A DNA stretch of 32,000 nt from Kineococcus radiotolerans SRS30216 = ATCC BAA-149 (GTDB taxonomy: Bacteria; Actinomycetota; Actinomycetes; Actinomycetales; Kineococcaceae): contig NC_009664.2 of the NCBI RefSeq assembly GCF_000017305.1, positions 4,320,001 to 4,352,000 of the forward strand, written 5' to 3'. Of this stretch, positions 4,500 through 21,692 are shown piece after piece. A program made the translations under genes and the position numbers. The number at the start of each line of letters is the position of its first letter. Within the stretch, counting starts at the first letter, position 1. A model generated the notes under the pieces. The model worked only from the letters and a program-made list of their open reading frames with translations, was not told the origin of the DNA and searched no databases.

Positions 4500-4505
4500 C
4501 GCCGC

Positions 4506-5279: not shown

Positions 5280-5374
5280 GACGCCCGCACTCCTGGAGCC
5301 GTGGGCGCCGCCGTCGACACGTCGACGGGTGCGTGACCGGGGCGGGCGCGCGGTGCGGTCGCAGGTGGTGGCTC

Positions 5375-5410
5375 TTGACGGCCTCAGTTCGTTAACGTAC
5401 GTTCATTAAC
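5375..5410 (+). promoter_or_regulatory. Candidate tetR promoter with AT-rich palindromic operator
   Basis: TTGACG (5375-5380), 17-nt spacer, TACGTT (5398-5403). A perfect palindrome AACGTACGTT (5394-5403) lies within an AT-rich island gttaacgtacgttcattaac, which is unusual for this GC-rich DNA. Confidence 0.4.
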
Positions 5411-5433
5411 CAAGGGTTCGGTCTCCAGGAGGG

Positions 5434-6030
5434 GTGGGAGTGGCACGGCCACGTACCGTCAGCGACGAAGCGATCCACGCGGCGACGGCTGAGGTGATGC
5501 GCCGCCACGGCCTGCAGGGCACCACCCTCGCGGCGGTCGCCGCCCACGCCGGGTTGTCCGCAGCGGGTCTGGTGCAGCGCTTCGGGTCCAAACGCCAGTT
5601 GCTGCTCGACTTCGCCCGCCGCGGCGAAGCGGCCACCGTCGAGTGCTTCACCACCGCCCGCTCCACGTCGACCTCACCGCTGCACGCCGTGCAGACCGCG
5701 CTGGCCATGCTGACCGCGCAGGTGCGTGAGCGCTCCGAGCTGGCCAACAACCTCAGCTTCCTGCAGCTGGACCTGGCCGACGAGGACTTCCGAGCGCTGG
5801 CGGCAGCCAACGCCCGCCAGGCGCAGGCGCAGATCGAGGAGCTGTTGCGGGAGGCGGTGACGGCGGGGGAGCTGGCCGCCACCGATACCGGCGCGCTGGC
5901 CCGCACCGTCTACCTCACCTACAACGGCGTGCTCACCCTGTGGCCGCTGACCGGCACCCGACCCCTGGCCCGCGAGCTGCACGACGCGGTCAGCGCCGTC
6001 CTGCGCCCGTACCTGCCCACCCGGCGGTGA
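5434..6030 (+). CDS. TetR/AcrR family transcriptional regulator
   Basis: ORF 5434..6030(+). N-terminal HTH TTLAAVAAHAGLSAAGLVQRFGSKRQLL, GGAGG upstream of the GTG start. GTG 5440 is the alternative start. Confidence 0.9.
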   Translation: MGVARPRTVSDEAIHAATAEVMRRHGLQGTTLAAVAAHAGLSAAGLVQRFGSKRQLLLDFARRGEAATVECFTTARSTSTSPLHAVQTALAMLTAQVRERSELANNLSFLQLDLADEDFRALAAANARQAQAQIEELLREAVTAGELAATDTGALARTVYLTYNGVLTLWPLTGTRPLARELHDAVSAVLRPYLPTRR

Positions 6031-6116
6031 CGAACCCGCACTCCCGCCGGCTTCGACGTCCGCCGGCGTCCAACAACCTCCGTCGACCGTCCACCACGCG
6101 CAGAGAGCGAGCAGTC

Positions 6117-6755
6117 ATGACCTCCGCACCACCGTCCTCGACGTCTCCCGAGATCCCTCCCGCGACCTCCCCGGCAGTGGTGACGCTCGCCGCGGCAGCC
6201 CCTCCCGGTGCGGGCTCGCCCACGCGGGCCGCGCCCTTCACCGGCGCAGTCTTCATCGCCACCAGCCTCGACGGCTACATCGCCCGCCCGGACGGTGACA
6301 TCGACTGGCTCACCGAGCGCGGCGCTGACGCCGGGGACACCGGCTACGAGTCCTTCATCGACGGGATCGACGCCCTGGTGATGGGGCGCGGCACCTACGA
6401 GAAGGTCCTCACCTTCGACGCCTGGCCCTACCCGGGGCGCACGGTGTTCCTGCTCAGCCGCCGCGCCGAGCCCGGCGTCGACGACCGCGTGCGCGTCGTG
6501 CGCGACGTGGCGGAGGCCGTGGACGCGATCAGCGCCTGCGGAGCCCGGCGTGTCTACGTCGACGGCGGACAGGTGGTGCAGTCCTTCCTGGCCGCCGGTC
6601 TGGTCCAGGAGATCACCATCACCACGGTCCCGGTGCTGCTGGGGGAGGGGTTGCCCCTCTTCGGCCGGCTGGGAGCCGATGTGGATCTGCAGCACCGGGC
6701 CACGACCGTCCTGGGAGCCGGTTTCGTGCAGTCCACCTACGCCGTCAGGCGGTGA
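6117..6755 (+). CDS. Dihydrofolate reductase-like (RibD C-terminal domain) family protein
   Basis: ORF 5940..6755(+), start moved to ATG 6117 downstream of the tetR stop. Motifs IATSLDGYIARPDG, LVMGRGTYE, VYVDGGQVVQSFL and ITITTVPVLLGEGLPLF are typical of the RibD_C/DHFR-like family. Confidence 0.85.
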   Translation: MTSAPPSSTSPEIPPATSPAVVTLAAAAPPGAGSPTRAAPFTGAVFIATSLDGYIARPDGDIDWLTERGADAGDTGYESFIDGIDALVMGRGTYEKVLTFDAWPYPGRTVFLLSRRAEPGVDDRVRVVRDVAEAVDAISACGARRVYVDGGQVVQSFLAAGLVQEITITTVPVLLGEGLPLFGRLGADVDLQHRATTVLGAGFVQSTYAVRR

Positions 6756-7335
6756 GGCCCAGCCCCTTGGATCCACCGACGAGACGCGGCCGCGGTGTCT
6801 CGAGGGGGTGGGTCGAACTCCCTCGGCTGGTGCCCCAGCGGCCGGTGGCCCGGGGCGGGGGCGACATGTCGCGAGGCTGCCGCTCGTACTCGGCCGCGGT
6901 GGTGGCGCCGGCGAGGGGGTGAGGCCGCACCAGCCGGGAAGACCGAGGCGGGAGCTGGGAGCTGCGACGATGCCGGGGCCGAAAACGTCGAGGAACCACG
7001 AGGCGAACCCGCCAGGTGCTCTCAGGTGCGGCGCACGACGGCGTGTCCACGCAGCTGGGCATTCAGCTCGGCGTGATGTGCCCCGGCGGGAGCGGACGAG
7101 CGGGCACGCCGGTGTCGGGGTGGTGCGCGCGCTCCTGAGGGCTGATCCGTGACGCCCCTCAATGCCCGGGCCGCTAGGACCGCCTCGGCCGCGGAAGGGC
7201 CGTCCCACGAGGAGATGACTGAGGTCCGGTGGTCAGCTCCGTCTCAGGGCCGGGGAGTCGATCGCGTGCTGGATCCTGCAGCTCACCGCGGCAGCAGCGG
7301 CAGCGGCTGGACGCAGCGGTGGCGGGCGCCTGCCC

Positions 7336-7596
7336 TCACCCCTGGTCCCGCAGGAGGGCCCGGTCCATGGCCGCGATCTCGTCGATGAGCCAGAGCGTCT
7401 TCAGCGCCAGGGCCTCGTCACCGGCGGCCAGGGCGTCCTGGCCCAGCTCGTGGACGCGCGACCGCAGGTCGGCGGTGCGTGTCGCCTGCGCCGGGGTGAG
7501 GTTCCGCCCCTGCGCGGTGCGGTCGCGGTCCGCGGAGTGCAGGTGGTCGCGAACTCGCTGCAGCGGCGACGGCGCCACCTGGGGTGCATCCGGCAT
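7336..7596 (-). CDS. Hypothetical small helical protein (86 aa)
   Basis: ORF 7336..7596(-), ATG start, consistently high third-position GC. No family recognised. Confidence 0.55.
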   Translation of the reverse strand: MPDAPQVAPSPLQRVRDHLHSADRDRTAQGRNLTPAQATRTADLRSRVHELGQDALAAGDEALALKTLWLIDEIAAMDRALLRDQG

Positions 7597-7975
7597 CCGC
7601 TGGACGGTAGCCCGTCGCTCCCGCCGCAGCTACCACCTGGGGCCTCGCGTTGCCGAGGTGGTGCGGGGGGCCGCCGGGATGGCGTGGAGGTCAGGAGCGC
7701 GAGGTCGGCGAGCGGACGCCTGCCGTCGGACGTCGTCGGTGTGACTGGATGTCCATCCTGCACCGGCGCTTCCGCTGGCTGGGGCGTTCCATCGGGGTAT
7801 CGGCCGGTCGTCACGGGTCACGGGCGCGGCTGCTGTCCCCCCGAGGCCGCGGGGGAAGCCTGGCCGCCGCAGGTGCAGCGCGCACCGTTGAGGGGTACGT
7901 GGTCGGCACCGAGCGGTGGACACGTCGCCCGGGGCGGGTGTGGCGGCTGCCTGTCCTCAGGCGTCAGCGGGTACG

Positions 7976-8992
7976 TCAGTCGCGTGCTGCCCCGGCGTTG
8001 GGGAGGCGCTCGACACTGGTGGACAGCGATGAGCCGACGCCGTGGGTCCAGGGCATGACGCGGTGCCAGCCGGCCCGCTGCAGCGCTCGGTCCAGCACGT
8101 CGGTGCTCATGGGTTCTGTAGAGACTGGGGAAGCCCACGGCAGCAGCCGGTACCAGCCCGACCACTCCCGCAGCTCCCTCGATCGTGACGGCGTCCACGT
8201 GGACGACGGGCTCGTCTCCCCGACGCCCGAGAGGGCTCTGGCGGGGGAGGGGGCTTCCGGCTGGTGCAGGTCGTCGGGTGGACGGGGGTCCTCCAGCAGC
8301 ACGCGTGAGTGCCGTTGGCCTGTCTCGGGCAGCGTCAGCACCAGGCTGTGGGCGAGACCGTGGGCGCGGTGGACGACGCTGTCGAGATGGTCACCACCGT
8401 GGCCACTGACGACGGTGTAGGTCGCCCTCAACCGCTGCCCTCGGGGGGCGGGGCCGTCCCAGTCCGGCGGGTCACCGAGGTCGCGGGCTCGGGCCACTCC
8501 GCAGGTGAGGTCGCCGATGCGGTCGGTCAGTTCCGACAGGTGAGCGTGCAGCTGCTGCAGCGAGGCCAGCACGTCGACGTCGGATCCAGGTGGAGGGGCT
8601 GCTGGCGCGGGGGAGGCGGCGGGACGCCACCGGCTGAGGCCGTCGGGGGCCTGGCGCCAGTGCCGTGACCGCCGCGGCTCCCCAGCAGGGCCGGCAGAAC
8701 CGGCGGAACCGGCCAGGGCCCAGTCCTGGTGCAGCAGGGTGTGCTGGGTGCGGGCGAGGTCTTCGGCGGTGTCGACGGCTTGCAGGAGCTCGTCGAGGAG
8801 GTGCCCGGTGAGGCGCTCGATGGCCAGGCGGCGGATCCTGGTGCGGATGCCCTTGCCGCCGCGGATCCTCTTGCCCCGGGCGGTGCGGTCCAGCGTGATC
8901 CACAGCTGGGTGAGGGCGTGGTCCAGGCGGGAGCTGGTGAGGGTGATGCGGCCGACGGCGAGCAGCACGTCGTCGGTGGGGGAGTCGGGCAC
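7976..8992 (-). CDS. Hypothetical protein (~338 aa), helical N-domain, Pro/Ala/Gly linker, unknown C-domain
   Basis: ORF 7976..9172(-). Third-position GC is low in codons 40-60 and high from about GTG 8992 onward, so the start is placed there (GTG 8968 is the alternative). Coding-like signal continues in another frame down to 7818, so a frameshift is possible. No family recognised. Confidence 0.5.
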   Translation of the reverse strand: MPDSPTDDVLLAVGRITLTSSRLDHALTQLWITLDRTARGKRIRGGKGIRTRIRRLAIERLTGHLLDELLQAVDTAEDLARTQHTLLHQDWALAGSAGSAGPAGEPRRSRHWRQAPDGLSRWRPAASPAPAAPPPGSDVDVLASLQQLHAHLSELTDRIGDLTCGVARARDLGDPPDWDGPAPRGQRLRATYTVVSGHGGDHLDSVVHRAHGLAHSLVLTLPETGQRHSRVLLEDPRPPDDLHQPEAPSPARALSGVGETSPSSTWTPSRSRELREWSGWYRLLPWASPVSTEPMSTDVLDRALQRAGWHRVMPWTHGVGSSLSTSVERLPNAGAARD

Positions 8993-9376
8993 TGGATGAG
9001 CATGGCCCAGGACGGCGGGAAGGCAAGATGAGTCCGTCGCAGGAGCAGGTGGGGCGGTCGCGGTCGGTGGGCGTGGCGCGCGGGTGCGGCCTCCGTTCAC
9101 CGGCAACGCTGAACGCGCGCTGCCCGTGCGCCGTGCACCGGGCTCGCAACCCTCGACGTCGCCACGGCGCACTCGGTGGTCTCCCGCCGATCAGTGACCC
9201 GGAACGAACGTGATGGCCGAGTGCACCCGGGCGGTGTGGGATTCCGACGTCCTACCTCGGCGTCGGGTGGTGGAACGCTCCTCGCTCGCATCAGCCGAGC
9301 CCGGCAGTCGGCTCGTGGCTTCGAGCGGTCGGTGAGTACGGCGCTCGCCGTGGCGGGAAGCGCCTGTGCGCGGATG

Positions 9377-9409
9377 GTGCTGCGCCGGTCGACGAGGTCG
9401 GCGCAGCAC
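9377..9409 (-). terminator. Hairpin downstream of the peptidase gene (candidate intrinsic terminator, no U-tract)
   Basis: Perfect 11-bp stem GTGCTGCGCCG (9377-9387) / CGGCGCAGCAC (9399-9409) with an 11-nt loop, 40-70 nt beyond the stop at 9450. Confidence 0.4.
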
Positions 9410-9449
9410 TCACCAGGCATCGGAAGCGATCACGCAGTGCTGCGGGTGC

Positions 9450-10811
9450 TCAGGACGTGGCGTCAGGGTGCTCGGCGCGGACCGCGGCGCCGGCGGCGGT
9501 GACGAGGGCCACGGTCTGATCGACGACGGCCTGCCGATCGGCCTCGAACGCCGGGTCGGTGAGCAGCGACTCGTCGCTCGGGTACTCCAGCGCAGAAACG
9601 TGCAGGTGTCCTCCAGGGACGTCCCACGCCTGCATGCCGATCCGCAACCGGTTGGAGCGGTACATGCTCTCGTTCGACAGGTAACTGCCCCCCGGGCCCG
9701 ACCCGGCCCGGCTGCCGGGCGTCGGGTCGTCCCCGCACTGCAGGGCCGTCGGCTCCGGCCACGTCCCGGCCGGCCATTCGCAGATGCCGTCGTTGAGCTG
9801 CACCGGCCACGGGCCCGTCCCGGCGGCGATCATCGCCTCGTACGGGAGGGTCGTCTCGATCCACTCCGGCGAGTCGTACGGCTGCGGCCAGTGCGAGGGC
9901 CGCGAGACCGGGCCGAACTGCTGGTTGCGGTTGTTGTCCGGAGAGCCGCCGCGGGCGTTGGCGGCCCACTGCTCGATGTCCATCTTGCCGCGGCCGGTCT
10001 GGCTGATCGTCATGATCATGTCGGTGCGGTCCTCGCCGGTGGCCAGCACCGGCCCGAACGCGTCCTCGACGACGCCCTGGTCGAAGTCGGTGTAGTTGAC
10101 GGGCAGGACGACGGCCTCCACCGTGACGGGACCCTGCGCGGTCTGCACCGTCCGCCCGTCCAACTGCAGGGCGCTGGCCCCGGAGGGGTTGGAGTTGCGC
10201 AGGCTCGCGTCGAGGCTGTACGTGTCGAAACCGCTGATGACGACGCGCGTCGCGTCGGGTTCCTCCTGCGACCAGACCACCGAGGAGATCCCGCGGCTGG
10301 TGCGGTCGAGCAGGTGCAGCAGGGCCTGCCGCTGCAACGGGCTCTCCAGGTACGTGGCGTCCAGCGCGCGCAGCGCCGCGCTCATCGACGTGCGCGCCCA
10401 GTACAGCGGCCGGTCGTCGTAGCGGTCGATCGTGCCGCTCTGCAGGCGACCCTGGGCGCGGGCGACGGCGGTGTCCCACAACCCCTGGCCGCTGCTGCGG
10501 ACGAGGTCCTGCGCCTGCTCCAGGGTGGTCGCCGCGCACAGCCGGGAGGAGAAGTCCGCGACGAGGCCGTCGAAACCGGCGGCGCGCAGGAACTGCTGGG
10601 AGGCGGGTTCCCCTCCGGGCACCAGCGGCTGACCGAGGCGGGACTCCTCGACGGTGAGCACGGTCGACGGTGCGGCGCACGCCGGGGCAGGGGCGGGGGC
10701 GTTCTGCGCGGCGGAGGGTGCCGCGGCACCGCCCAGCACGAGCGCGGTGGCCGAGGCACCGAGGACGGCGGTGCGCCAGCCGGTGCGGGGCGGACGAGGA
10801 GGAAGGGCCAC
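9450..10811 (-). CDS. Secreted peptidase C15 (pyroglutamyl-peptidase)-like protein with N-terminal extension
   Basis: ORF 9450..10811(-). The signal-peptide-like N-terminus has RR (PRPPRTGWRTAVLGASATALVLGGAAAPSAAQ). Blocks RVVISGFDTY...NSNPSG, GSYLSNESMY and PGGHLHVS resemble the C15 motifs (TGFxPF..NPS, AGxYxCN, GFIHVP). Confidence 0.7.
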   Translation of the reverse strand: MALPPRPPRTGWRTAVLGASATALVLGGAAAPSAAQNAPAPAPACAAPSTVLTVEESRLGQPLVPGGEPASQQFLRAAGFDGLVADFSSRLCAATTLEQAQDLVRSSGQGLWDTAVARAQGRLQSGTIDRYDDRPLYWARTSMSAALRALDATYLESPLQRQALLHLLDRTSRGISSVVWSQEEPDATRVVISGFDTYSLDASLRNSNPSGASALQLDGRTVQTAQGPVTVEAVVLPVNYTDFDQGVVEDAFGPVLATGEDRTDMIMTISQTGRGKMDIEQWAANARGGSPDNNRNQQFGPVSRPSHWPQPYDSPEWIETTLPYEAMIAAGTGPWPVQLNDGICEWPAGTWPEPTALQCGDDPTPGSRAGSGPGGSYLSNESMYRSNRLRIGMQAWDVPGGHLHVSALEYPSDESLLTDPAFEADRQAVVDQTVALVTAAGAAVRAEHPDATS

Positions 10812-10864
10812 GGTGACCTCACCAGGTGGGGGTGGGACGAGCGGACGGCCTCGACGCTAGCGAG

Positions 10865-10875
10865 TTGTTGAACGA
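10865..10875. promoter_or_regulatory. GntR-family operator-like site 1 (TTGTTGAACGA)
   Basis: Fits TNGTNNNACNA exactly and lies in the 102-bp divergent gap between the peptidase gene and gntR. Confidence 0.45.
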
Positions 10876-10913
10876 CCTGGCAATGGTCCTGCTGTTTCGA
10901 CTACGTTTCGCAG

Positions 10914-11609
10914 ATGCACTCCCCGGCGCCGGACGGTGACGCGCGACTGCCGGAGCGGTTGAGCTCCGCCGGCCGCGCCCTGGTCGCCGGCGGGGGCGCG
11001 GACCGGGTCGCGGAGGCCCTGCGGGACCTCGTCGCCGACGGCGCGCTGGTGCCGGGGACGCGGCTGCCGGAGGACGCGACGAGCGCGTCCCTGGGCGTCT
11101 CACGGAACACGCTGCGCGAGGCGTTCCGGCTCCTGGTCCGCGAGGGCCTGCTGCGCCACGAGCTGCACCGCGGCGTCTTCGTGCGCTCGCTGACCGCCGC
11201 GGACGTCGTCGACGTGTACCGGTTCCGGCGCGTGCTGGAGTTCGCCGCCATCGACGGGCCCCACGAACCCTCTGCCCTGCAACGAGCTCGCGAGGCCGTC
11301 GAAGAGGGCCGGACGTCCCGTCGGGCCGGTGACTGGGAGGGCGTGGGCACCGCGAACAACCACTTCCACTCCGCGGTCGTCGCGCTCGCGGGCAGCCCGC
11401 GCATGGACGACAGCATGCGCCACCTGCTGGCCGAGCTGCGGCTGGCGTTCGTCGTCGTGACCGACCCGCGCCCGTTCCACGAGCCGTACCTGGAGGACAA
11501 CGGACGCATCGCCGACCACCTCGAAGCAGGCGAGCGCGGTCGCGCGGGACGGTTGCTCGCGGCCTACCTCGACCGCGCCGAGGGGCAGTTGCTCGCTGCC
11601 CACCGATGA
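10914..11609 (+). CDS. GntR family transcriptional regulator (FadR/FCD-type C-terminal domain)
   Basis: ORF 10914..11609(+). Winged HTH LPEDATSASLGVSRNTLREAFRLLVREGLLRHELHRGVFV followed by an all-helical C-terminal domain. Confidence 0.9.
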   Translation: MHSPAPDGDARLPERLSSAGRALVAGGGADRVAEALRDLVADGALVPGTRLPEDATSASLGVSRNTLREAFRLLVREGLLRHELHRGVFVRSLTAADVVDVYRFRRVLEFAAIDGPHEPSALQRAREAVEEGRTSRRAGDWEGVGTANNHFHSAVVALAGSPRMDDSMRHLLAELRLAFVVVTDPRPFHEPYLEDNGRIADHLEAGERGRAGRLLAAYLDRAEGQLLAAHR

Positions 11610-11634
11610 GCCGTCCCCGCGCGGGAGCAGACGG

Positions 11635-11645
11635 ATCGTTGAACA
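11635..11645. promoter_or_regulatory. GntR-family operator-like site 2 (TCGTTGAACAA)
   Basis: This is the reverse complement of site 1 except for the central base. It lies 26 nt after the gntR stop. Confidence 0.35.
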
Positions 11646-11808
11646 ACCCTCGGAGTGCTGCGTGCGGACCCGATCAGACCGGTGGAGGCCCGCACCCGGC
11701 GCCCGGTGCACCTCCTCGCGGACACTTCGCCAGACCGGGGCCGCTTCCCCGCCGGCGCGGTCCCGCCCACGGCCGGTTGGTCGCACGGTGGGACGCAGCC
11801 GAGTCCGA

Positions 11809-12312
11809 TCACGGTGAAGGGTGCCCGCGGTCGGTCGAGCGCAGCAGGAGGGCGCGGGTGGCTCCGGCGGCGTGGTGGGCCCAGTGCGTCCAGTAGTCCT
11901 GACGCCACTGCCACTGCACGTCGTTCAGGCTCATCCCCGCGTCGAGGGCCAGCAGCCCGTTCTCGGGGTCCCGCCAGACGTCAGCCAGGTCGTCGACGAA
12001 GTCACCCAGACCGACGCCGGCCTGGGCTTCGTCCTCGGCGAAGGGGTAGGACGCCTCCCAGCAGCAGCCGGCCCCGGCGCCGATGCGCTGCCCGATGCGC
12101 CGGTAGCAGGCGTGCCACTGCTCGTGGGAGACGGCCACCGGGGATTCCGCGTCGCTGGGTTCGACCTCGGGCAGGCGCAACGCCGAGGCGACGGCGTCGG
12201 CGAGGGCGGTCAGCAGTCGGTGGGCGAAGGCGGCGTCCTCGTCCCGACTGCCCTGATCGTCCTCTTCGCCGACGAGGGAGCAGTAGACCCGGGCGGCTTC
12301 ACGCATGTCCAC
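11809..12312 (-). CDS. Acidic helical hypothetical protein, DUF5063-like
   Basis: ORF 11809..12312(-). The C-terminal pattern DDLADVWRD...GL...W..DYWTHWAHHAAGATRALL matches my recollection of the DUF5063 family. The family call is unverified. Confidence 0.65.
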   Translation of the reverse strand: MDMREAARVYCSLVGEEDDQGSRDEDAAFAHRLLTALADAVASALRLPEVEPSDAESPVAVSHEQWHACYRRIGQRIGAGAGCCWEASYPFAEDEAQAGVGLGDFVDDLADVWRDPENGLLALDAGMSLNDVQWQWRQDYWTHWAHHAAGATRALLLRSTDRGHPSP

Positions 12313-12382
12313 TGGAGGATGGTGACAGGACCGCCGCGATCGTCCGCTTCTCGGTGTAGCCCAAAGATCATCGACCCTGCAT

Positions 12383-12420
12383 GACCGCGCCCGGATCGGG
12401 GGATGACTGTGAAGTCGCCA
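12383..12420 (+). repeat. Hairpin + GGGAYGACYGTG intergenic repeat, copy a
   Basis: GACCGCGC, then hairpin CCCG-gat-CGGG (12390-12400), then core GGGATGACTGTG (12400-12411) followed by AAGTCGCC. It lies between the stop of gene 12435..12800 and the start of 11809..12312. Confidence 0.8.
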
Positions 12421-12434
12421 GGGGCGACCGCTGG

Positions 12435-12800
12435 TCAGGTGTTGTGCTGGGTGCGGCTGAGCTTGCGTTGCAGTGACCTCAAGACGGTGATGGTCTGCTG
12501 GTCACCCAGGGGGCTGACCATCTCCCAGTCCAGCCCCGACCCCCAGCGGTCGCTGACGAAGGCCAGCTCAGTGACGGCGAGGAGCTGCTGGAGGTCCTGC
12601 CCGGTCAGCGGCTGACGCTCCGTCAAGCGCTGGAGAAGACGCGGGCTGCGCTCGTGCAGGTCGGCGACGTCGCGAAAGCCCATCAGGCGTGCCAGCTCCT
12701 CGGTGGGGTGGGCTGAGCCGCCCCACTCGGCGAGGCCGGTGCTCAGCATCAGGCGCTCTTCGTCGTTGAGGTCGACCTCGAGGTGGGGTACTGCGGCCAT
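12435..12800 (-). CDS. Hypothetical protein (121 aa)
   Basis: ORF 12435..12911(-), start moved to ATG 12800 (MAAVPHLEVDLNDEERLML...). The upstream part of the ORF runs through repeat copy b. High third-position GC, no family recognised. Confidence 0.65.
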   Translation of the reverse strand: MAAVPHLEVDLNDEERLMLSTGLAEWGGSAHPTEELARLMGFRDVADLHERSPRLLQRLTERQPLTGQDLQQLLAVTELAFVSDRWGSGLDWEMVSPLGDQQTITVLRSLQRKLSRTQHNT

Positions 12801-12877
12801 GACCTCAGCATGACTTCCGCGGACGTCATCGTGATCCTTCTTGCCATCGAAGCTTGCGGCGGACGCCGCTACGACAG

Positions 12878-12930
12878 CGCCATGTCTGCGGGATGACCGT
12901 GCGCTTCGCACGCACCGCGGGATGAGCGAG
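12878..12930 (+). repeat. Hairpin + GGGAYGACYGTG intergenic repeat, copy b (tandem double core)
   Basis: CGC-catgtct-GCG, then core GGGATGACCGTG (12890-12901). A second degenerate core GGGATGAGCGAG (12919-12930) follows 29 nt later and abuts the stop of gene 12933..13250. Confidence 0.75.
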
Positions 12931-12932
12931 CA

Positions 12933-13250
12933 CTACGCCGAGGGACCTGCGGTGGCGCGGCGCACCCACGAAAGCAGAGTCAGCAGTGTGGCGGGGTCGA
13001 GGTCGCGGGCTGCCCAGTCGGCGATCGTCAGGTCGTGGGCGCCAACCGAGACGCCGTTGTCCAGGAGGAAGTCGACGATGTCCCGTCCTTCCAACGGGCG
13101 GTAGTCCGCGTACCTCCGGGGGGTGCGAGCTCGCCAAGACGGGGCGTCGTCCAGTACGTCGTCAGGCACCTCGAAGCCCAGGTCGACGCGCAGCACCTCC
13201 CAGTTCTCGTTGCCTGCTTCGTCGCGCTCAGGGATGAAGCCCTGTGTCAT
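12933..13250 (-). CDS. Hypothetical acidic protein (105 aa)
   Basis: ORF 12933..13250(-), ATG start with GAGGA upstream, high third-position GC. No family recognised. Confidence 0.65.
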   Translation of the reverse strand: MTQGFIPERDEAGNENWEVLRVDLGFEVPDDVLDDAPSWRARTPRRYADYRPLEGRDIVDFLLDNGVSVGAHDLTIADWAARDLDPATLLTLLSWVRRATAGPSA

Positions 13251-13360
13251 CTGGTCCTCGTTTCCGGCTCAGGTGTCCTGGTCCACTGAGACTGGCACCC
13301 GCCCCAGGCCCTCGCTGCAACATCCTCACTTCGCCATGTGAGGTCCTTACCGGCCACCCG

Positions 13361-13396
13361 GGACCGCGCACAACGCGGGATGACCGTGAAATCGCG
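13361..13396 (+). repeat. Hairpin + GGGAYGACYGTG intergenic repeat, copy c
   Basis: GGACCGCGCACAACGCGGGATGACCGTGA (13361-13389) is identical over 29 nt to copy e. The hairpin is CCGCG-cacaa-CGCGG (13364-13378) and the core is at 13377-13388. Confidence 0.9.
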
Positions 13397-13431
13397 TTTG
13401 CTCCGCCCACAGCACGGAGTGGTCGTGCGTC

Positions 13432-13818
13432 CTACGCGAGGTGCCGGCTGATCACCGCCGCCAGTTCCGCGGCGTCGAGCTCTCCGGCGGCCACGGCCAG
13501 CACCATCTGCTCGGCCTCGTCGACGTGCATGACCAGGTCGGTGCCGTTGAGCAGGCAGAAGACGCGGGTCGCGGACCAGGCCAGGCGCTTGTTGCCGTCG
13601 ACCAGCGGGTGGTTGCGAGCCAGGGAGTGCATCAAGGCTGCGGCCTTGTCGGCGAGGGTGGGATAGGCCTCGCGGCCGAAGACGGTGGTGCGGGGACGGG
13701 CAGCGGCCGAGGCGAGCAGACCCAGGTCGAGGACCTGCACGTCCTCGACGACGCCGGCGGCGATCTCGAGCAGGTCCTCGGTGGAGAGGTGGTCGAGCGG
13801 GGGTTCGGGCTGGGTCAC
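13432..13818 (-). CDS. doc: Doc (death-on-curing) / Fic-family toxin
   Basis: ORF 13432..14085(-), start placed at GTG 13818, which overlaps the antitoxin stop (GTGA). The Fic/Doc motif HPLVDGNKRLAW is present. Confidence 0.9.
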   Translation of the reverse strand: MTQPEPPLDHLSTEDLLEIAAGVVEDVQVLDLGLLASAAARPRTTVFGREAYPTLADKAAALMHSLARNHPLVDGNKRLAWSATRVFCLLNGTDLVMHVDEAEQMVLAVAAGELDAAELAAVISRHLA

Positions 13819-14012
13819 CGCGCCAGGCGGGCGAGGAGTTCGGCGTCCTCGGTGCGGACTCGGTCGATGGCCGCGCGCAGGCGAGCGGGACGGTCGGAGA
13901 CGTACTCGCCGATGGCGGCGCGGGCGACTTCCTGCATGGAGCGGCCCTCCTGCTCGGCGCGGCGGCGCAGGGCGTCGGCCTCGTCGTCGGTCAGCCGGAG
14001 GTTCATCGCCAT
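13815..14012 (-). CDS. Ribbon-helix-helix (CopG/Arc-like) antitoxin partnered with Doc
   Basis: ORF 13815..14012(-), 65 aa. MAMNLRLTDDEADALRRRAEQEGRSMQEVARAAIGEYV is a typical RHH N-terminus. A 4-nt overlap links it to doc. Confidence 0.85.
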   Translation of the reverse strand: MAMNLRLTDDEADALRRRAEQEGRSMQEVARAAIGEYVSDRPARLRAAIDRVRTEDAELLARLAR

Positions 14013-14084
14013 GCACGCATGGTACCGCTCTGGTACCAGTCAGGCCAGGTGCGTGGACCTCGTCATGGCCGTGCCTCGTGATCA

Positions 14085-14116
14085 CGCGCTGAGCGCGGGA
14101 CGACCGTGCGTTCGCC
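14085..14116 (+). repeat. Hairpin + GGGAYGACYGTG intergenic repeat, copy d
   Basis: Hairpin CGCGC-tga-GCGCG (14085-14097), then core GGGACGACCGTG (14097-14108). It lies between the antitoxin start (14012) and the ABM gene start. Confidence 0.8.
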
Positions 14117-14162
14117 CGACCCGCCTCAAGCGCTGAGATGCGAAGCGGTGAGGATGAAGGCC

Positions 14163-14459
14163 ATGATCCTCGAGCAGGCCGTCCTCGATGTCCGACCTGG
14201 CCAGACCGACGACTTCGAGGTGGCCTTCTCCCAGGCCAAGACGATCATCTCGGCGATGCCTGGCTTCCAGCGGCTGACGCTGTCGCGCTGCCTCGAGCGC
14301 CCGGACGCCTACCTCCTGCTGGTGCAGTGGGACACCTTGGAAGATCACACCAAGGGATTCCGTAGCTCGGCGCAGTATCACGAGTGGAAGCGGCTGCTGC
14401 ATCACTTCTACGACCCGTTCCCGACGGTCGAGCACTACCGGCAGGTCGATAGCGCCTGA
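14163..14459 (+). CDS. Antibiotic biosynthesis monooxygenase (ABM) domain protein
   Basis: ORF 14106..14459(+). MILEQAVLDVRPGQTDDFEVAFSQA...LLLVQWDTLEDH is a typical ABM fold sequence. Start placed at ATG 14163 (GAGGA 8 nt upstream), with ATG 14154 as the alternative. The ORF-track start at 14106 lies inside repeat d. Confidence 0.85.
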   Translation: MILEQAVLDVRPGQTDDFEVAFSQAKTIISAMPGFQRLTLSRCLERPDAYLLLVQWDTLEDHTKGFRSSAQYHEWKRLLHHFYDPFPTVEHYRQVDSA

Positions 14460-14480
14460 GCGCGTGACGACGCCGGCGTC

Positions 14481-14516
14481 GGACCGCGCACAACGCGGGA
14501 TGACCGTGAGGTCGTG
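14481..14516 (+). repeat. Hairpin + GGGAYGACYGTG intergenic repeat, copy e
   Basis: Identical 29-mer to copy c (14481-14509), core at 14497-14508. An upstream degenerate half-copy CGCGTGACGACGCCG lies at 14461-14475. Copy e sits between two convergent stops (14459 and 14529). Confidence 0.9.
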
Positions 14517-14528
14517 CCGCACACCCGC

Positions 14529-15188
14529 TCACGCGGCCCGGAGTCGCTCGTGCAGTGTCTGCACTCCTGGGCCGTTCAAGGTGTTCAAGCCGTCAGGCCG
14601 TCCTGAGACGACCAGCAGCAGGTCGCGGTCCGGTCCCTGGACCTCGATGCCGGACCCGTGCTCCCACGGGGAGTCGGTGGACACCAGATGGAGTCCCTTC
14701 ACGCGCTGGGGTGCGCCCATGAAGCGGTTGCCGATGGCGTGGGTCAGGCAGGCGGTGACGACGTGAGCGGGTGAGGAGTAGGTCAGCTGCAGGGGGCGGG
14801 CGATGTCGTGGGCGTGGATGACCAGGTCCATCAGCGGGTCCATGGGGCTGCTGCCGGGGAAGCGGCGGGTGGACTCGGCGCTGTCGTGCAACTGCTCGAG
14901 GAGTTCGGTGGTGCTGTAGCGCTCGGCGCGGGCCGCGGCCATGGCGAGTTCCATGCGGTCGAAGGAGCCGCGAGCCCTGATCGCTTCGCGTGCGACCTTC
15001 GACACGGTCAGGCGTGTGGTGGTGGTCAGGTGAGCGAGGACGTTGCGCACCGTCCAGGCGGTGCACAGCGACGGCGTACTCCACTGCTCCTGCCTCAGGG
15101 GCATCAGCCAGTCAGCGAGTCGGTGGCGTTCGTCGCGCACGGCGGCGGTCGTCTGCTCGGAGGTCAGCGGGGACGGGTCGATGGCCAT
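14529..15188 (-). CDS. Mycothiol-dependent maleylpyruvate isomerase-like / DinB-superfamily protein
   Basis: ORF 14529..15221(-), start placed at ATG 15188 (MAIDPSPL...). ERHRLADWLMPLRQEQWSTPSLCTAWTVRNVLAHL is the typical MDMPI N-terminal (DinB-like) domain pattern. Confidence 0.8.
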   Translation of the reverse strand: MAIDPSPLTSEQTTAAVRDERHRLADWLMPLRQEQWSTPSLCTAWTVRNVLAHLTTTTRLTVSKVAREAIRARGSFDRMELAMAAARAERYSTTELLEQLHDSAESTRRFPGSSPMDPLMDLVIHAHDIARPLQLTYSSPAHVVTACLTHAIGNRFMGAPQRVKGLHLVSTDSPWEHGSGIEVQGPDRDLLLVVSGRPDGLNTLNGPGVQTLHERLRAA

Positions 15189-15611
15189 GATCGTGAGACT
15201 AGGGACGAGTCCATGATTCATCGATGCCGTGACAGCTGATCACGTCCACCTCTCGTCATGACCGGTAGATCGCTGAAGGTGCAGCGGTTCGTCGTGCCGG
15301 TGTGCCCGCCGACCCTGGAGTGGGCTTCGTCGTGCTCGCCAGGAGTGCGGACGCCGGTCTGCGCAGCCGTGGCAGGGAACGGGTGGAGGAGCTGGACTCC
15401 GCGTCCGCGGTCGGTGCGGTCTACTGCCGACTCGACGCGGAGACGATCACGGCGGAGCGGTTCGGCGATGACCTGCTGCTCTGGAGGTCGAACCGACTGC
15501 GACGGGGCGGATGCTGCGCTCGCGTTGACACAGCTGGTCGTCGATGAAGGGCCACCGACGAGGCATCGCAGCGCACGGCTCGAGCATCGGCGGAGGAGTC
15601 GGTGTTGAGTG

Positions 15612-15740
15612 TCACGTCCTTGCGGCGGGGGTGCGCGCTTCGCGCAGGCTGTGGCGCAGGACCAGGAAGGTGTTGAGGCCGGGCGTCAGTTCCAGCAGCA
15701 GGCACAGGGCGGCGAAGGCCAGCAGCGCGTCGAGGCTCAC
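15612..15740 (-). pseudogene. Truncated LysE/RhtB-family translocator (N-terminal 42 codons only)
   Basis: GTG 15740 then VSLDALLAFAALCLLLELTPGLNTFLVLRHSLREARTPAART and a stop at 15612. This matches the first TM helix and TPG-x-N...VLR motif of LysE-family exporters, which are normally about 200 aa. No continuation was found in any frame. Confidence 0.55.
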
Positions 15741-15814
15741 GCGGGCATGCTGCCAGGCCGCTGATGGAACCGGGCGCTGCACGAGACGCCTGGCCGACGG
15801 CGTGGAGCGGCAGG

Positions 15815-16741
15815 ATGCAGGGCCGAACCTCGTCGCCGCTGGTGGGCGAGGAGGCCGCTGTGCAGGGGGAACGCACAGTGCGCGCTCGGACGGGCGAGGA
15901 CGATTCCGTGCCCAGCGACGTACCCAGTGACGTGCCTGATGACGGGCGGGGCGATCAGTGGCTGGCGGGTCTGCTCGTGGAGGCACTAGTGCGAACGGGT
16001 GACGGTACACCACGGTGCCGCCGCAGGAGCCAGCATGAGGCCGTGACCTTCGATCCGCCCCCACACCCCCCGGAGGGGCACGACCCGGAACTCGGCCATC
16101 CCGCGGAGCTCGAGCAGCAGCGCAGCGAGAACCTGCGGGGCAGCGGGCACCTGCACGCCGGCGGGCCTCGCGGCGGCGGTGGACTGCCGCCGGTGCCGGT
16201 GGTCCTGGGCGCTGGTGGTGTGGGCCGCGGTTTGCTGTGGGCGCTCGCGTTCCTGCTGCTGGCTGCGGGTGGGTGGTGGCTGAGCCCGGGGGACGGGTTC
16301 GCCTTGCTGTACTTCAGCGGCCAGCTGGCCTTGAGCGCAGCGTGCGTCGTGTACGCCGTGGCCCGCCACCGTCTGGACACCGTGCGGCTGGAGGAGCAGG
16401 CGATCGTGGTGGTGACCCGGCGGGGGGAGAAGACGTACGCGTGGGCTGATGTGCTGGAGGTGTCCTGGCAGGGGTCGTCGTGGCCGTACGCCGGCAGCGG
16501 GCCGGTGCTGCGGCTGCGGGGTGGTCCTTTCGACACCCCGGGCCCCAACGCGCCGGCGCAGATCGCGCACCTGCCGATCTTCGGCCGGGCCGCTTCCCGG
16601 CAGGCGGTGGACCTGCTGCGTCGTGCTGCCGCGGCGCACCAGGTGCCGTACACGGCGAAGCTCATCGAGCTGATCAACACGGGCAAGCGCATGCCGCGGT
16701 TGCCCGGTGAGCCGCGTGCTTCGACCCGTGGCGGGCGGTGA
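15815..16741 (+). CDS. Membrane protein with bacterial PH-like domain (bPH_6-type), long N-terminal extension
   Basis: ORF 15764..16741(+). Two predicted TM helices (LLWALAFLLLAAGGWWL, LLYFSGQLALSAACVVYAV), then LEEQAIVVVTRRGEKTYAWADVLEVSW, a PH-like beta pattern. The start is uncertain (ATG 15764, 15815 or later). Confidence 0.6.
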   Translation: MQGRTSSPLVGEEAAVQGERTVRARTGEDDSVPSDVPSDVPDDGRGDQWLAGLLVEALVRTGDGTPRCRRRSQHEAVTFDPPPHPPEGHDPELGHPAELEQQRSENLRGSGHLHAGGPRGGGGLPPVPVVLGAGGVGRGLLWALAFLLLAAGGWWLSPGDGFALLYFSGQLALSAACVVYAVARHRLDTVRLEEQAIVVVTRRGEKTYAWADVLEVSWQGSSWPYAGSGPVLRLRGGPFDTPGPNAPAQIAHLPIFGRAASRQAVDLLRRAAAAHQVPYTAKLIELINTGKRMPRLPGEPRASTRGGR

Positions 16742-18630: not shown

Positions 18631-18886
18631 GGGTGGATTCGACCCGCGGGGCGCCGGTGGGGAGCCTCCGCGACGCGCATCCGGGATCCAGTCGCTCGTG
18701 CGCTGGTCCCCTCCGGCTGCCGTGCCCGTGGAACGGCGTCGGCCATCGACGACCGCTCGTACCGCGGGGGGCCCGCGAGGTCGTGCATCCCGTGCTTCAC
18801 GGCGACTACGAGGTCAGTAGTAGTTCCCGTGCGCCTGGCGGGCTGACGAGCCCGGCGGCCGTCGTGGGTCTCGGGTCAGGTCAGCG

Positions 18887-18915
18887 CCGCGCCGAACGCG
18901 GGACGACCGCGCAGG
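18887..18915 (+). repeat. Hairpin + GGGAYGACYGYG intergenic repeat, copy f
   Basis: Hairpin CCGCG-ccgaa-CGCGG (18887-18901), then core GGGACGACCGCG (18900-18911), 30 nt upstream of the RidA-family gene. Confidence 0.7.
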
Positions 18916-18940
18916 GCAGCGCCGGCGGCCCCGGACAGGC

Positions 18941-19342
18941 ATGATCGAGAGCGTGTCCGATCGTGAAGTCGTCTCGTCCGGCGCCGTGTGGGAGCCGCTG
19001 GTCGGTTACTCCCGTGCGGTGCGTGTCGGATCCTGGATCAGCGTGGCGGGTACCACCGCTGCCGGCCCGGACGGTGCCCCCGTGGGTGGTGACGACATCG
19101 CCGAGCAGACCCGCGAGGCCATCCGGCGCATCGAGGCCGCCCTGGCGCAGGTCGGGGCGGGCCTGGGCGACGTGGTGCGCACCCGCATGTTCGTCACCGA
19201 CATCACCCGGTGGGAGGAGGTCGGCCGCGCTCACGGTGAGTTCTTCGCCGACATCCGCCCCGCCTCGTCCATGGTGCAGATCAGTGCTCTCATCGACCCG
19301 CGTCTGCTGGTGGAGGTCGAGGCGGACGCGGTCCTGGGGTGA
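18941..19342 (+). CDS. RidA/YjgF/UK114 family protein
   Basis: ORF 18941..19342(+), 133 aa. [18 protein letters not shown]...[10 protein letters not shown]...VEVEADAV is the family pattern. Confidence 0.88.
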
Positions 19343-19503
19343 CCCGGGCGCTCACCGAACTCTTCGACGAGACCCCGACGCCGTCGCCCGCCAGCCGCAG
19401 CGTACCCATCGCCGGATGCCCGTGAGGTTCGTACGTTCCTGGGCGCTCATCGTCGATCGTTCACCGGCTCGGGGTTCCTCGCTCCACTGGAGAGGGTGAG
19501 CGT

Positions 19504-21362: not shown

Positions 21363-21692
21363 CGGTCCTACGGCGAGCAGGACCCGCAGGTCGCCGCCCG
21401 CCTCACGACGTACTGCGCGGTCGTGGTGTGCCGCGGGCTCGGCCGTGGGCTCCTGCGCTCCCCGACCCTCCCGGTTCTGCCACGCGGGGTGACGCCACGA
21501 CGCGGATGACCGGCTCACGTGGGGGTGACCAGGACCCGCGCAGTGCAGAGCCGACCGCCGACCCGCTGACTCGCCGGCTCGTCCTTCCAGGCTGCCCGGG
21601 CGCTCGCCGTGGGGTGGGAGTGGCGGCAGGTGCACACCGCCGGTGTGATTACTCTGAGTCGTCATGAGTGGGTGTGATGTGTTCGATGCTGC

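What the first reader, a model, noticed from the sequence alone, without database searches (positions are those of the whole stretch)
12383..14516. Same-orientation hairpin + GGGAYGACCGTG repeat family that splits 12.4-14.5 kb into single-gene cassettes
There are six clear copies, all in one orientation and all intergenic. The cores are 12400-12411 GGGATGACTGTG, 12890-12901 GGGATGACCGTG (with a second degenerate core at 12919-12930), 13377-13388 GGGATGACCGTG, 14097-14108 GGGACGACCGTG, 14497-14508 GGGATGACCGTG and 18900-18911 GGGACGACCGCG. Copies c and e are identical over 29 nt (13361-13389 = 14481-14509), which cannot be chance. Each core directly follows a short hairpin. The hairpin sequence changes while its pairing is kept: CCGCG/CGCGG in c, e and f, CGCGC/GCGCG in d, CCCG/CGGG in a. 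That looks like selection on structure. Each interval between consecutive copies holds exactly one gene or one operon: unknown 121 aa, unknown 105 aa, RHH-Doc, and ABM (the last on the opposite strand). Weaker look-alikes lie at 7211-7228, 15258-15273, 21483-21514 and 25141-25168, the last immediately after the 25117-25142 hairpin. The possibilities are a REP/BIME-like element, recombination sites of a non-canonical cassette array, or a shared operator or RNA 3'-end element. I do not recognise it as any described motif.
Basis: seen in the sequence. Interest (0 to 1): 0.72.

Follow-up and report, generated by a model that had tools for sequence, protein, structure and literature searches.

The report
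Integron-like gene cassette array in Kineococcus
The repeats are real and mark the junctions of small mobile gene cassettes that are shuffled between Kineococcus genomes, an integron-like arrangement in a phylum reported to lack complete integrons, using a different site and an unidentified enzyme.

Summary
The six same-strand copies of GGGAYGACYGYG are real: 6 were found against 0.27 expected, and no shuffle reached 6. The window comes from a Kineococcus chromosome (72% GC). The same roughly 31-nt site, read on the other strand as cGACyT-CACGGTCATCCC-GCGkTGyGCGCGG, occurs in every Kineococcus array locus I could fetch. I counted 92 sites in 244 kb. All lie within 67 kb of arrays, none in the other 177 kb, and within each locus all are on one strand. 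They are almost always intergenic, with a median of about 0.7 kb between junctions.

Seven cassettes recur in other genomes with different neighbours or a different order. They include two from this window, the 121-aa gene and RHH-Doc. Wherever the block ends could be resolved, homology starts and stops at the 12-nt core. Two 99%-identical strains diverge just after a core.

The hairpin-covariation claim and the four weak look-alikes are not supported. The sites lack attC boxes, are not dispersed or inverted like REPs, and are not spaced like CRISPR repeats. No recombinase gene lies near any array, so the enzyme and mechanism remain inferred. I found no prior description.

The parts
12383..12422 (+). 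Site a (core 12400-12411, GGGATGACTGTG). Junction between the DUF5063 gene and the 121-aa cassette.
   Evidence: PWM 33.1; E=4e-9. Homology with L044 ends at this core.
12873..12907 (+). Site b (core 12890-12901). Junction between the 121-aa and 105-aa cassettes.
   Evidence: PWM 27.8; E=3e-7. Homology with L044 starts exactly at this core.
12905..12936 (+). Site b2, a degenerate tandem unit 29 nt from b (core 12919-12930). It abuts the stop codon of the 105-aa gene. The same doublet follows the K. aurantiacus homologue.
   Evidence: PWM 11.1; E=0.03.
13361..13396 (+). Site c (core 13377-13388). Junction between the 105-aa and RHH-Doc cassettes. Its first 29 nt (13361-13389) are identical to site e.
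   Evidence: PWM 46.2; E=3e-12. One end of the RHH-Doc block shared with L165.
14081..14119 (+). Site d (core 14097-14108, GGGACGACCGTG). Junction between the RHH-Doc and ABM cassettes.
   Evidence: PWM 33.9; E=1e-9. The other end of the RHH-Doc block shared with L165.
14481..14518 (+). Site e (core 14497-14508). Junction between the ABM cassette and the MDMPI gene.
   Evidence: PWM 46.8; E=3e-12.
18884..18917 (+). Site f (core 18900-18911, GGGACGACCGCG), 29 nt upstream of RidA. A partly decayed copy.
   Evidence: PWM 22.4; E=7e-7.
19386..19430 (+). Degenerate same-strand site downstream of RidA. With f it brackets RidA as an old cassette.
   Evidence: PWM 17.1; E=0.013.
18740..18785 (+). Weak degenerate same-strand site between the periplasmic-binding-protein gene and f.
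   Evidence: PWM 14.9; E=0.09. Borderline.
11809..12312 (-). DUF5063 gene, the last unit of the array. Synteny with K. terrestris ends at about 11802.
12435..12800 (-). 121-aa ORFan cassette gene. The cassette runs about 490 bp, core a to core b.
   Evidence: only 2 homologues in 5.8 billion proteins. Found in a different context in L044.
12933..13250 (-). 105-aa cassette gene, a Kineococcus-only family.
   Evidence: (24 clusters, all named ones Kineococcus).
13432..14012 (-). RHH antitoxin (13815-14012) and Doc toxin (13432-13818) cassette.
   Evidence: Pfam Fic/DOC, RHH. The same cassette is at L165 10702-11459, in the opposite order relative to the 105-aa gene.
14163..14459 (+). ABM monooxygenase cassette gene. 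It is the only gene of this array on the same strand as GGGATGACCGTG.
18941..19342 (+). RidA (L-PSP) gene lying between site f and the degenerate site at 19386-19430.

Best explanation
The repeats are the junction sites of a chromosomal array of mobile gene cassettes. This kind of array is found across the genus Kineococcus.

Anatomy, read on the strand where the core is CACGGTCATCCC:
- A cassette starts at a core.
- It continues with 45-200 nt of its own non-coding DNA.
- It then carries one gene or one small operon, in either orientation.
- It ends 3-40 nt after the coding region with cGACyT, followed by the next core.

Shown:
- The site family and its statistics.
- Strict single orientation within each locus, and confinement to arrays.
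- The same cassettes recur in different genomes with other neighbours or order. Homology begins and ends at the core wherever the block ends could be resolved.
- Near-identical strains differ in cassette content from a core onwards.
- A more distant lineage carries a variant core.

Inferred:
- Cassettes are excised and inserted by conservative recombination whose crossover lies inside the 12-nt core.
- The enzyme is encoded elsewhere in the genome and co-evolves with the site.
- Tandem 26-28-nt units at some junctions are secondary local amplifications.
- Sites decay once cassettes become fixed, as around RidA.

The system therefore works like an integron cassette array lacking a nearby integrase (CALIN). 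It is not a member of that family.
For: - Real family: 6 exact cores against 0.27 expected. The conserved block runs from about -6 to +24 around the core.
- Organism: Kineococcus.
- Distribution: among the 120 stretches returned by the capped GTDB scan, only Kineococcus loci carry two or more sites, e.g. nine scoring PWM >=14 (eight with a strict core match) in 8 kb of K. vitellinus T13.
- Clustering: 92 sites (PWM >=14) in 244 kb of Kineococcus DNA, all within 67 kb of array spans and none in the other 177 kb. One strand per locus in all 14 loci that carry sites.
- Spacing: median inter-junction distance 695 bp.
- Position: 55 of 58 sites in L165-L168 are intergenic, and nearly every intergenic gap in the arrays has one.
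- Window cassettes in new contexts:
  - 121-aa cassette, window 12383-12901 = L044 136-653 (88%), with unrelated DNA on both sides.
  - RHH-Doc, window 13365-14105 = L165 10702-11459 (84%), with its order relative to the 105-aa gene swapped.
- Cassettes shared between other loci (same calls): L044/L058, L058/L167, L048/L167, L062/L166 and L058/L168.
- Strain difference: L165 and L166 are 99.2% identical for 10.4 kb, then diverge 26 nt after a degenerate core.
- Variant core CACGCTCATGCC in a distant lineage, L170.
- Tandem clusters have cluster-specific unit lengths of 26 versus 27/28 nt.
- Cassette genes have lower GC3 (0.80-0.85) than flanking core genes (about 0.9).
Against: - No tyrosine, serine, HUH or Cas1 recombinase gene was found in about 240 kb of array-bearing loci. 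Only IS110, ISL3 and IS3 transposases turned up.
- No circular intermediate or attI-like entry site is known.
- The site shows no clear dyad symmetry of the kind bound by classical tyrosine or serine recombinases.
- Tandem 26-28-nt units cannot arise by excision and integration, so they need a second process.
- Most arrays were reached through the 105-aa gene or through the site pattern itself. Sampling is therefore biased, and genome-wide copy number in a complete genome was not measured.
- The PWM and model R1 were trained on sites that include the window's own copies.
Confidence: 0.62

Rival explanations
1. The repeat is a REP-like or otherwise functional intergenic element, such as a protein-binding, insulator or terminator element. 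Selection keeps it for its own function. Cassette swapping is then a by-product of homologous or short-homology recombination between copies after horizontal transfer. No dedicated recombinase is involved.
For: - No recombinase gene lies near any array.
- Copies can share up to 29-30 identical nt, as c and e do.
- Tandem amplification is typical of repeat dynamics.
Against: - Only 12-14 nt are reliably identical between sites, because the right arm is cassette-specific. That is short for RecA-dependent exchange.
- Sites are absent from 177 kb of non-array DNA.
- They are always on one strand whatever the gene orientation. This argues against a gene-linked function and against REP/BIME organisation.
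- A lineage-specific variant core suggests co-evolution with a recogniser.
Confidence: 0.15
2. The core is a duplicated target or shared donor-target sequence made by an integrase that inserts DNA site-specifically. One candidate is an RNA-guided IS110-family recombinase whose guide pairs with the roughly 12-nt core. Another is a Cas1/casposase-like integrase acting on a CRISPR-repeat-derived unit. Repeated insertion into the same sequence would build head-to-tail arrays.
For: - An IS110-family RNA-guided transposase (NCBIfam NF033542, E=4e-53) sits in the K. aurantiacus array like a cassette. It lies between two site-like sequences that share CGGTCAT.
- The strictly conserved part is about 12-14 nt with variable flanks, which I recall is close to guide length.
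- The 28-nt tandem unit aligns with published actinobacterial type I-E CRISPR repeats in length, 5' end, GC stem and GGGATGA-CCG tail. The score is 14 against 9.7 +/- 1.6 for shuffles, and 5 of 300 shuffles do as well.
Against: - Only one IS110 copy was found in all loci held.
- No bridge-RNA-like complementarity was found, and no Rfam hit, CRISPR-DR families included.
- No cas genes were seen.
- The unit's right half is cassette-specific rather than duplicated on both sides. That does not fit duplication of the whole repeat.
- Spacing is 0 or 0.1-4.7 kb, never about 32 nt.
Confidence: 0.12
3. The element acts at the RNA or transcription level for each small gene, as a shared operator, a U-tract-less terminator or a processing site. 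Its position between genes would simply reflect that role.
For: - The sites are always intergenic.
- They lie close to stop codons of genes on the CACGG strand (3-40 nt).
- Short GC stems can be drawn.
Against: - Orientation is constant within an array while gene orientation varies. Most T13 genes are antisense to the site, and most window genes are sense.
- There is no covariation and no unusual folding energy.
- There is no Rfam match.
- The ATG inside the core is not used as a start in frame with downstream genes.
- The RHH-Doc operon has its own operator-like GGTACC pair next to its start codon.
- This reading does not explain homology breaks at the core.
Confidence: 0.05

Closest known systems
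Integron cassette arrays, especially CALINs (clusters of attC sites lacking an integrase)
   Same: - Arrays of mostly single-gene cassettes.
- One site per junction, all in one orientation.
- Cassettes encode toxin-antitoxin pairs, small unknown proteins and modifying enzymes.
- Cassettes are shuffled between genomes with boundaries inside a short conserved core.
- Sites are lineage-specific.
- The non-coding site DNA sits asymmetrically at one cassette end.
- No integrase is adjacent, as in CALINs.
   Different: - The site is about 31 nt with an invariant CACGGTCATCCC core. It is not a 57-141-nt attC with R''/L''/L'/R' boxes; 0 paired boxes were found in 47 kb of arrays.
- There is no evidence for a folded-strand structure.
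- No IntI was found.
- Gene orientation is mixed, and many cassettes carry about 100 nt of their own upstream DNA.
- The host is an actinobacterium, a phylum reported to lack complete integrons (PMC4889954).
REP / BIME / REPIN elements with RAYT transposases
   Same: - A short GC-rich extragenic repeat with a conserved tail next to a possible stem.
- The enzyme, if any, is encoded elsewhere.
   Different: From my own knowledge, REPs are dispersed genome-wide, often as inverted pairs, and do not delimit cassettes. Here there are 0 sites in 177 kb outside arrays, and every site in a locus is on the same strand. The GTAG-type tetranucleotide of REPs was not looked for.
Tandem accretion of integrase-less integrated elements at one attachment site (SCC composite islands with ISS/DR repeats; CIMEs mobilised by an ICE integrase)
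   Same: - Units are separated by short direct repeats of the crossover core, all in one orientation.
- Many units lack their own recombinase and would depend on one supplied in trans.
   Different: From my own knowledge, those elements are kilobases to tens of kilobases long and sit at a defined gene or tRNA attB. At least one member carries the recombinase. Here the units are about 0.4-2 kb, number 15 or more per 20 kb, occur at several chromosomal loci, and have no attB gene or recombinase identified.
Type I-E CRISPR repeats of Actinobacteria (PMC4762764, Table 1)
   Same: - The 28-nt tandem unit has a GTGCG... 5' end, a six-pair GC stem and a GGGATGA-CCG tail.
- The repeats all point in one direction.
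   Different: - There is no regular spacing of about 32 nt; units are either directly tandem or 0.1-4.7 kb apart.
- No cas genes were seen.
- No Rfam CRISPR-DR match was found.
- The resemblance is only marginally better than shuffles (5 of 300).
- Half of the unit is cassette-specific.
IS1111/IS110 elements that target integron attC sites or REPs
   Same: An IS110-family element lies inside a Kineococcus array, flanked by site-like sequences sharing CGGTCAT.
   Different: This is a single example. It is unknown whether the IS merely targets the site or supplies the recombinase.
Acinetobacter pdif modules (XerC/D-dependent) and Neisseria NIME/dRS3 arrays
   Same: Short conserved sites bound small modules that are exchanged between replicons or strains. 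The unit length of 28 nt equals that of a dif site.
   Different: From my own knowledge, pdif sites alternate in orientation and are AT-rich dif-like sequences. NIME units are non-coding and flanked by inverted dRS3 repeats. Neither fits these GC-rich, single-orientation sites.

Membership tests
Integron / CALIN | attC sites with paired R'' (RYYYAAC) and R' (GTTRRRY) boxes 30-130 nt apart | tested here: not met
   0 paired boxes on either strand in 47 kb of arrays: window 11.8-14.6 kb, L058, L166, L167 and L168.
Integron / CALIN | Site recognised as a folded single strand, with conserved structure and variable sequence | tested here: not met
   No covariation. Folding z-scores range from -1.4 to +1.3. 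Sequence is conserved, not structure.
Integron / CALIN | IntI tyrosine recombinase next to the array (complete integron) | tested here: not met
   No Phage_integrase or any other recombinase domain in the window or in the array loci. A distant intI cannot be excluded.
Integron / CALIN | Discrete cassettes that move or reshuffle with boundaries in the core site | tested here: met
   Seven cassettes shared between loci in different contexts. Where the block ends could be resolved, they fall at the core.
REP / BIME (RAYT-associated) | Many copies dispersed through extragenic DNA genome-wide | tested here: not met
   92 sites, all within 67 kb of arrays and 0 in 177 kb elsewhere. A complete genome was not scanned.
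REP / BIME (RAYT-associated) | Copies frequently in inverted pairs (BIME/REPIN) | tested here: not met
   74 of 74 strong sites share the strand of their locus.
REP / BIME (RAYT-associated) | A RAYT (IS200-like Y1 transposase) gene flanked by the repeats | not testable with these tools
   No whole-genome protein search of Kineococcus was possible. None was seen in the loci held.
CRISPR array (type I-E) | Repeats regularly interspaced by unique spacers of about 30-35 nt | tested here: not met
   Partner cores occur at +26 to +29 nt, i.e. directly tandem, or 0.1-4.7 kb away. There is no 60-nt period.
CRISPR array (type I-E) | Repeat sequence and structure of the I-E family | tested here: inconclusive
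   The best alignment to published actinobacterial I-E repeats scores 14 against 9.7 +/- 1.6, and 5 of 300 shuffles do as well. No Rfam CRISPR-DR hit at E<=10.
CRISPR array (type I-E) | Adjacent cas genes | tested here: not met
   No Cas domains among the Pfam hits in any locus.
XerC/D dif-like modules (pdif) | 28-bp dif-like sites flanking modules in alternating orientation | tested here: not met
   All sites are in one orientation. The sequence is GC-rich and unlike the AT-rich dif consensus, which I recall from memory and did not test.
Intrinsic terminator / cis-regulatory RNA | Orientation tied to the flanking gene, with a stable or covarying structure | tested here: not met
   Orientation is independent of gene strand. 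No structural signal. No Rfam family.

The most novel reading that the evidence does not exclude
Kineococcus carries a second, independently evolved integron-like gene-capture system. In this reading the roughly 12-nt core is read by a guide RNA rather than by protein arms, for example by an IS110-family bridge recombinase. Alternatively, its 28-nt unit descends from a type I-E CRISPR repeat and is used by a Cas1-like integrase to take up gene-sized DNA.
Probability: 0.1. Interest if true: 0.95.

Novelty: new variant of a known kind. Interest (0 to 1): 0.78.

Why it matters
Integrons are the standard example of modular gene capture, and complete integrons were reported absent from Actinobacteria (PMC4889954). 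A genus-wide array system with a different, much shorter site and no IntI nearby would show that cassette-based gene capture arose more than once.

It would also give a compact about 31-nt site and a still-unknown recombinase that could be useful for engineering high-GC actinomycetes.

It opens a reservoir of small accessory genes to study. These include toxin-antitoxin pairs, many APH-type kinases, acetyltransferases and genus-specific ORFans.

Identifying the enzyme is now a directly testable question, because the site, its lineage variant and many natural cassette junctions are defined.

Tried and rejected
- Rfam at gathering and at permissive thresholds on the window, an array and a tandem cluster: nothing.
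- tRNA/tmRNA scan for att-site remnants: none.
- Hairpin covariation on 20 sites, all-pairs complementarity on 74 sites, and folding against shuffles: no signal.
- attC box search: none.
- Core ATG (GGG-ATG-ACC-GTG) as a shared start codon: open frames from it are no longer than in another frame, 24 versus 25 of at least 60 codons.
- Sigma-70 promoter and terminator consensus scans in 11.6-14.7 kb: uninformative.
- Orthologous locus in K. arenarius and K. terrestris: only the PA0049_N-like and GntR genes are syntenic, so cassette presence/absence could not be read there.
- Viral collection scans with two patterns: only chance hits in coding DNA of unrelated phages, so no phage attP.
- Plasmid collection: only Doc and ABM gene homologues, no arrays.
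Distribution outside Kineococcus is therefore not settled.
- 105-aa protein: AlphaFold2 gives a confident C-terminal three-helix bundle, but no PDB fold match and no Pfam, NCBIfam or PADLOC hit.
- IS110 upstream region: no convincing complementarity to the site, and no other IS110 copy in any locus held.
- Literature searches by organism, by concept and by the sequence itself: no description found.


Full report
**1. The observation**

The window is 72% GC. GGGAYGACYGYG occurs exactly six times, all on the + strand, at 12400, 12890, 13377, 14097, 14497 and 18900. Dinucleotide shuffles give 0.27 +/- 0.49, and none of 100 reaches six.

Copies c and e are identical over 29 nt. GC3-guided gene calling, Pfam and the gene calls on identical public contigs give this gene order:

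| Gene | Coordinates | Strand |
|---|---|---|
| GntR | 10914-11609 | + |
| DUF5063 | 11809-12312 | - |
| 121-aa unknown | 12435-12800 | - |
| 105-aa unknown | 12933-13250 | - |
| Doc | 13432-13818 | - |
| RHH | 13815-14012 | - |
| ABM | 14163-14459 | + |
| MDMPI | 14529-15221 | - |
| RidA | 18941-19342 | + |

A position weight matrix and a sequence-only Infernal model (R1) were built from 20 sites. Both recover the six copies. They also recover the degenerate tandem partner b2 (12905-12936, E=0.03) and two further decayed same-strand copies at 19386-19430 (E=0.013) and 18740-18785 (E=0.09). With f, these bracket RidA.

Two score E=1.6 and 3.7, and two are not found at all.

**2. The hairpin**

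Short GC stems can be drawn next to the core, but I found no evidence that structure is selected.
- On 20 aligned sites, the two candidate helices (GACC/GGTC and CCGCG/CGCGG) pair in 81% of cells. Column shuffles give 79%, and all covariation measures are reached by 73-158 of 500 shuffles.
- An all-against-all complementarity scan of 74 sites shows no pair above noise.
- Single-strand folding energies of eight site regions have z-scores from -1.4 to +1.3.

What is conserved is sequence, a block from about -6 to +24 around the core. I call this strand F below.

**3. Organism and distribution**

A flanking 453-aa protein is 89% identical to Kineococcus vitellinus T13 and 82-87% identical to other Kineococcus species. 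The exact window sequence is present in several Logan and ENA assemblies with the same gene order.

Most were single chance hits in unrelated high-GC taxa. Seven were Kineococcus loci, and only Kineococcus loci carry two or more sites. K. vitellinus T13 has nine scoring PWM >=14 (eight with a strict core match) in 8 kb.

The 105-aa protein is a Kineococcus-only family of 24 clusters. The 20-kb neighbourhoods of its homologues in six further assemblies are arrays of small genes. Nearly every intergenic gap in the array parts holds a site.

The totals are as follows:
- 92 sites (PWM >=14) in 244 kb of Kineococcus DNA.
- All within 67 kb of array spans, and none in the other 177 kb.
- A single strand in each of the 14 loci that carry sites.
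- 55 of 58 intergenic in L165-L168.
- Median distance between junctions 695 bp (interquartile range 516-1320).

**4. Cassettes move**

Decisive for this window is L044, a metagenome contig encoding an 88%-identical 121-aa protein. It aligns with the window only over 12383-12901. Homology starts exactly at CACGGTCATCCC (core b) and stops just after the next core (a). Both flanks are unrelated.

L044's upstream neighbour is instead homologous to a T13 cassette, L058 4012-4154, up to that core. In T13 the same cassette has other neighbours.

The RHH-Doc cassette (window 13365-14105, cores c to d) recurs at L165 10702-11459 (84%). There its order relative to the 105-aa gene is reversed.

Four more cassettes are shared between other pairs of loci: L058/L167, L048/L167, L062/L166 and L058/L168. 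The core-to-core fit is clearest for L058/L167. The ends of the L062/L166 and L058/L168 blocks could not be read cleanly.

Two assemblies that are 99.2% identical over 10.4 kb diverge completely 26 nt after a degenerate core.

The junction anatomy is asymmetric.
- The sequence before the core on strand F, ending cGACyT, belongs to the preceding cassette and abuts its coding region by 3-40 nt.
- The sequence after the core belongs to the next cassette. It is followed by 45-200 nt of non-coding DNA.

Gene orientation within cassettes is mixed. It is mostly sense to F in the window and mostly antisense in T13.

**5. Other features**

About a quarter of sites have a second core 26-29 nt downstream. 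Some junctions carry two to four tandem units, such as CACGGTCATCCCGCGGTGCGCGCGGGCG. Unit length is cluster-specific, which indicates local amplification. The window's b/b2 pair is one of these, and the same doublet follows the K. aurantiacus homologue of the 105-aa gene.

A contig from a more distant lineage (L170) uses a variant core, CACGCTCATGCC. That points to co-evolution with whatever recognises the site.

Synteny of the window with K. arenarius and K. terrestris covers only 9447-11802. The array therefore sits in a variable region that begins at the DUF5063 gene. Cassette genes have a lower GC3 than their neighbours.

**6. What it is not**

- *Integron attC sites.* No paired R''/R' boxes occur in 47 kb of arrays, there is no structural signal, and no IntI was found. 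Complete integrons were reported absent from Actinobacteria (PMC4889954).
- *REP/BIME.* The sites are clustered and always on one strand.
- *CRISPR.* The spacing is wrong and no cas genes were seen. However, the 28-nt tandem unit resembles published actinobacterial type I-E repeats (PMC4762764) somewhat better than shuffles do, with 5 of 300 as good. Rfam gives nothing.
- *Shared start codon.* Not supported.
- *Known RNA family.* None matches.
- *Phage attP or plasmid-borne array.* Not found in either collection.

**7. Mechanism**

Shown:
- The sites are cassette junctions.
- Cassette content and order vary at the core.

Inferred:
- Conservative recombination with its crossover inside the 12-nt core, carried out by an enzyme encoded elsewhere.

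No recombinase gene was found in any array locus.

The one suggestive lead is an IS110-family RNA-guided transposase. It sits like a cassette in the K. aurantiacus array, between two site-like sequences that share CGGTCAT. It is a single case, and I found no guide-like complementarity.

Recombination between copies without a dedicated enzyme remains possible. It is disfavoured by the short shared identity and by the strict conservation of the core.

**8. Novelty**

Searches of the held literature by organism, by concept and by the sequence itself found no description.

I rate the finding as a new variant of a known kind. It works like an integron or CALIN array but fails that family's defining tests. 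The main gap is the unidentified recombinase.

Noticed in passing
window 14021-14039: Two GGTACC palindromes 11 nt apart (TGGTACCgctcTGGTACCA) lie immediately upstream of the RHH start codon at 14012. They are probably the RHH-Doc operator. They are separate from the array site d, which lies about 60 nt further upstream.
   Followed up: no
window 9447-11802 versus L041 and L042: Synteny with K. arenarius and K. terrestris covers only the PA0049_N-like and GntR genes. Beyond GntR the relatives carry pxp/acetyl-CoA carboxylase genes, whereas the window carries the cassette array. The array therefore begins at a synteny break near 11803.
   Followed up: partly
window 12933-13250; L165, L166 and L169 10001-10318: The 105-aa protein is conserved across Kineococcus (56-98% identity, 24 clusters). 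In three assemblies it is the first unit between core genes and the array. AlphaFold2 gives a confident C-terminal three-helix bundle with no PDB match. Its recurrence may partly reflect that I used it as bait.
   Followed up: partly
L167 15631-17545: An IS110-family RNA-guided transposase (448 aa) lies inside the K. aurantiacus array. It is flanked by GATCTTGCGGTCATGG and ACATCCGGTCATCCCGCC, as if inserted in, or behaving as, a cassette at the site core. The 106-aa 'gene' upstream of it may in fact be its non-coding RNA region.
   Followed up: partly
L170 (JGI 3300012890 contig), sites at 1544-16438: A more distant lineage uses a variant site, CACGCTCATGCC-GCTGGTCGCGCGG. This would be useful for finding a co-varying recogniser.
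   Followed up: no
L166 11300-11414, 14780-14863 and 16323-16411; window 12876-12936: Junctions carry two to four directly tandem 26-28-nt units. The unit, read as GTGCGCCCGCGCGCACCGCGGGATGACC, resembles actinobacterial type I-E CRISPR repeats in length, 5' end, stem and tail. The similarity is only marginally significant.
   Followed up: partly
L058 689-1747, L100 4348-5193, L166 14939-15853, L167 4567-5565, L168 8152-9096, L169 14677-15480, L170 9876-10874: APH-type phosphotransferase (aminoglycoside or hydroxyurea kinase-like) genes recur as cassettes in seven of the arrays. Toxin-antitoxin pairs (RHH-Doc, VapBC), GNAT acetyltransferases and ECF sigma/anti-sigma pairs also recur.
   Followed up: no
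L166 = CP170445.1 4,712,062-4,732,379 of 4,808,488: In the one complete genome sampled, the array lies about 80-95 kb from the end of the chromosome record. Kineococcus radiotolerans is said to have a linear chromosome (from my own knowledge), so the arrays may sit in chromosome arms.
   Followed up: no
window 12372-12380 (TCGATGATC, with TTTGGG running down to 12366); L166 about 14875-14895 and about 16015-16035; L167 15625-15644: A second recurrent motif, CGATGATCTTGCGGTCAT, lies 30-50 nt after some cores. It looks like a diverged copy of the site, with cGATCTTGCGGTCATgg in place of cGACCTCACGGTCATCC.
   Followed up: no
window 16093-16123 (+): This is the only weak model hit on the opposite strand (E=0.046). 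It lies inside the 325-aa ORF and is probably chance.
   Followed up: no
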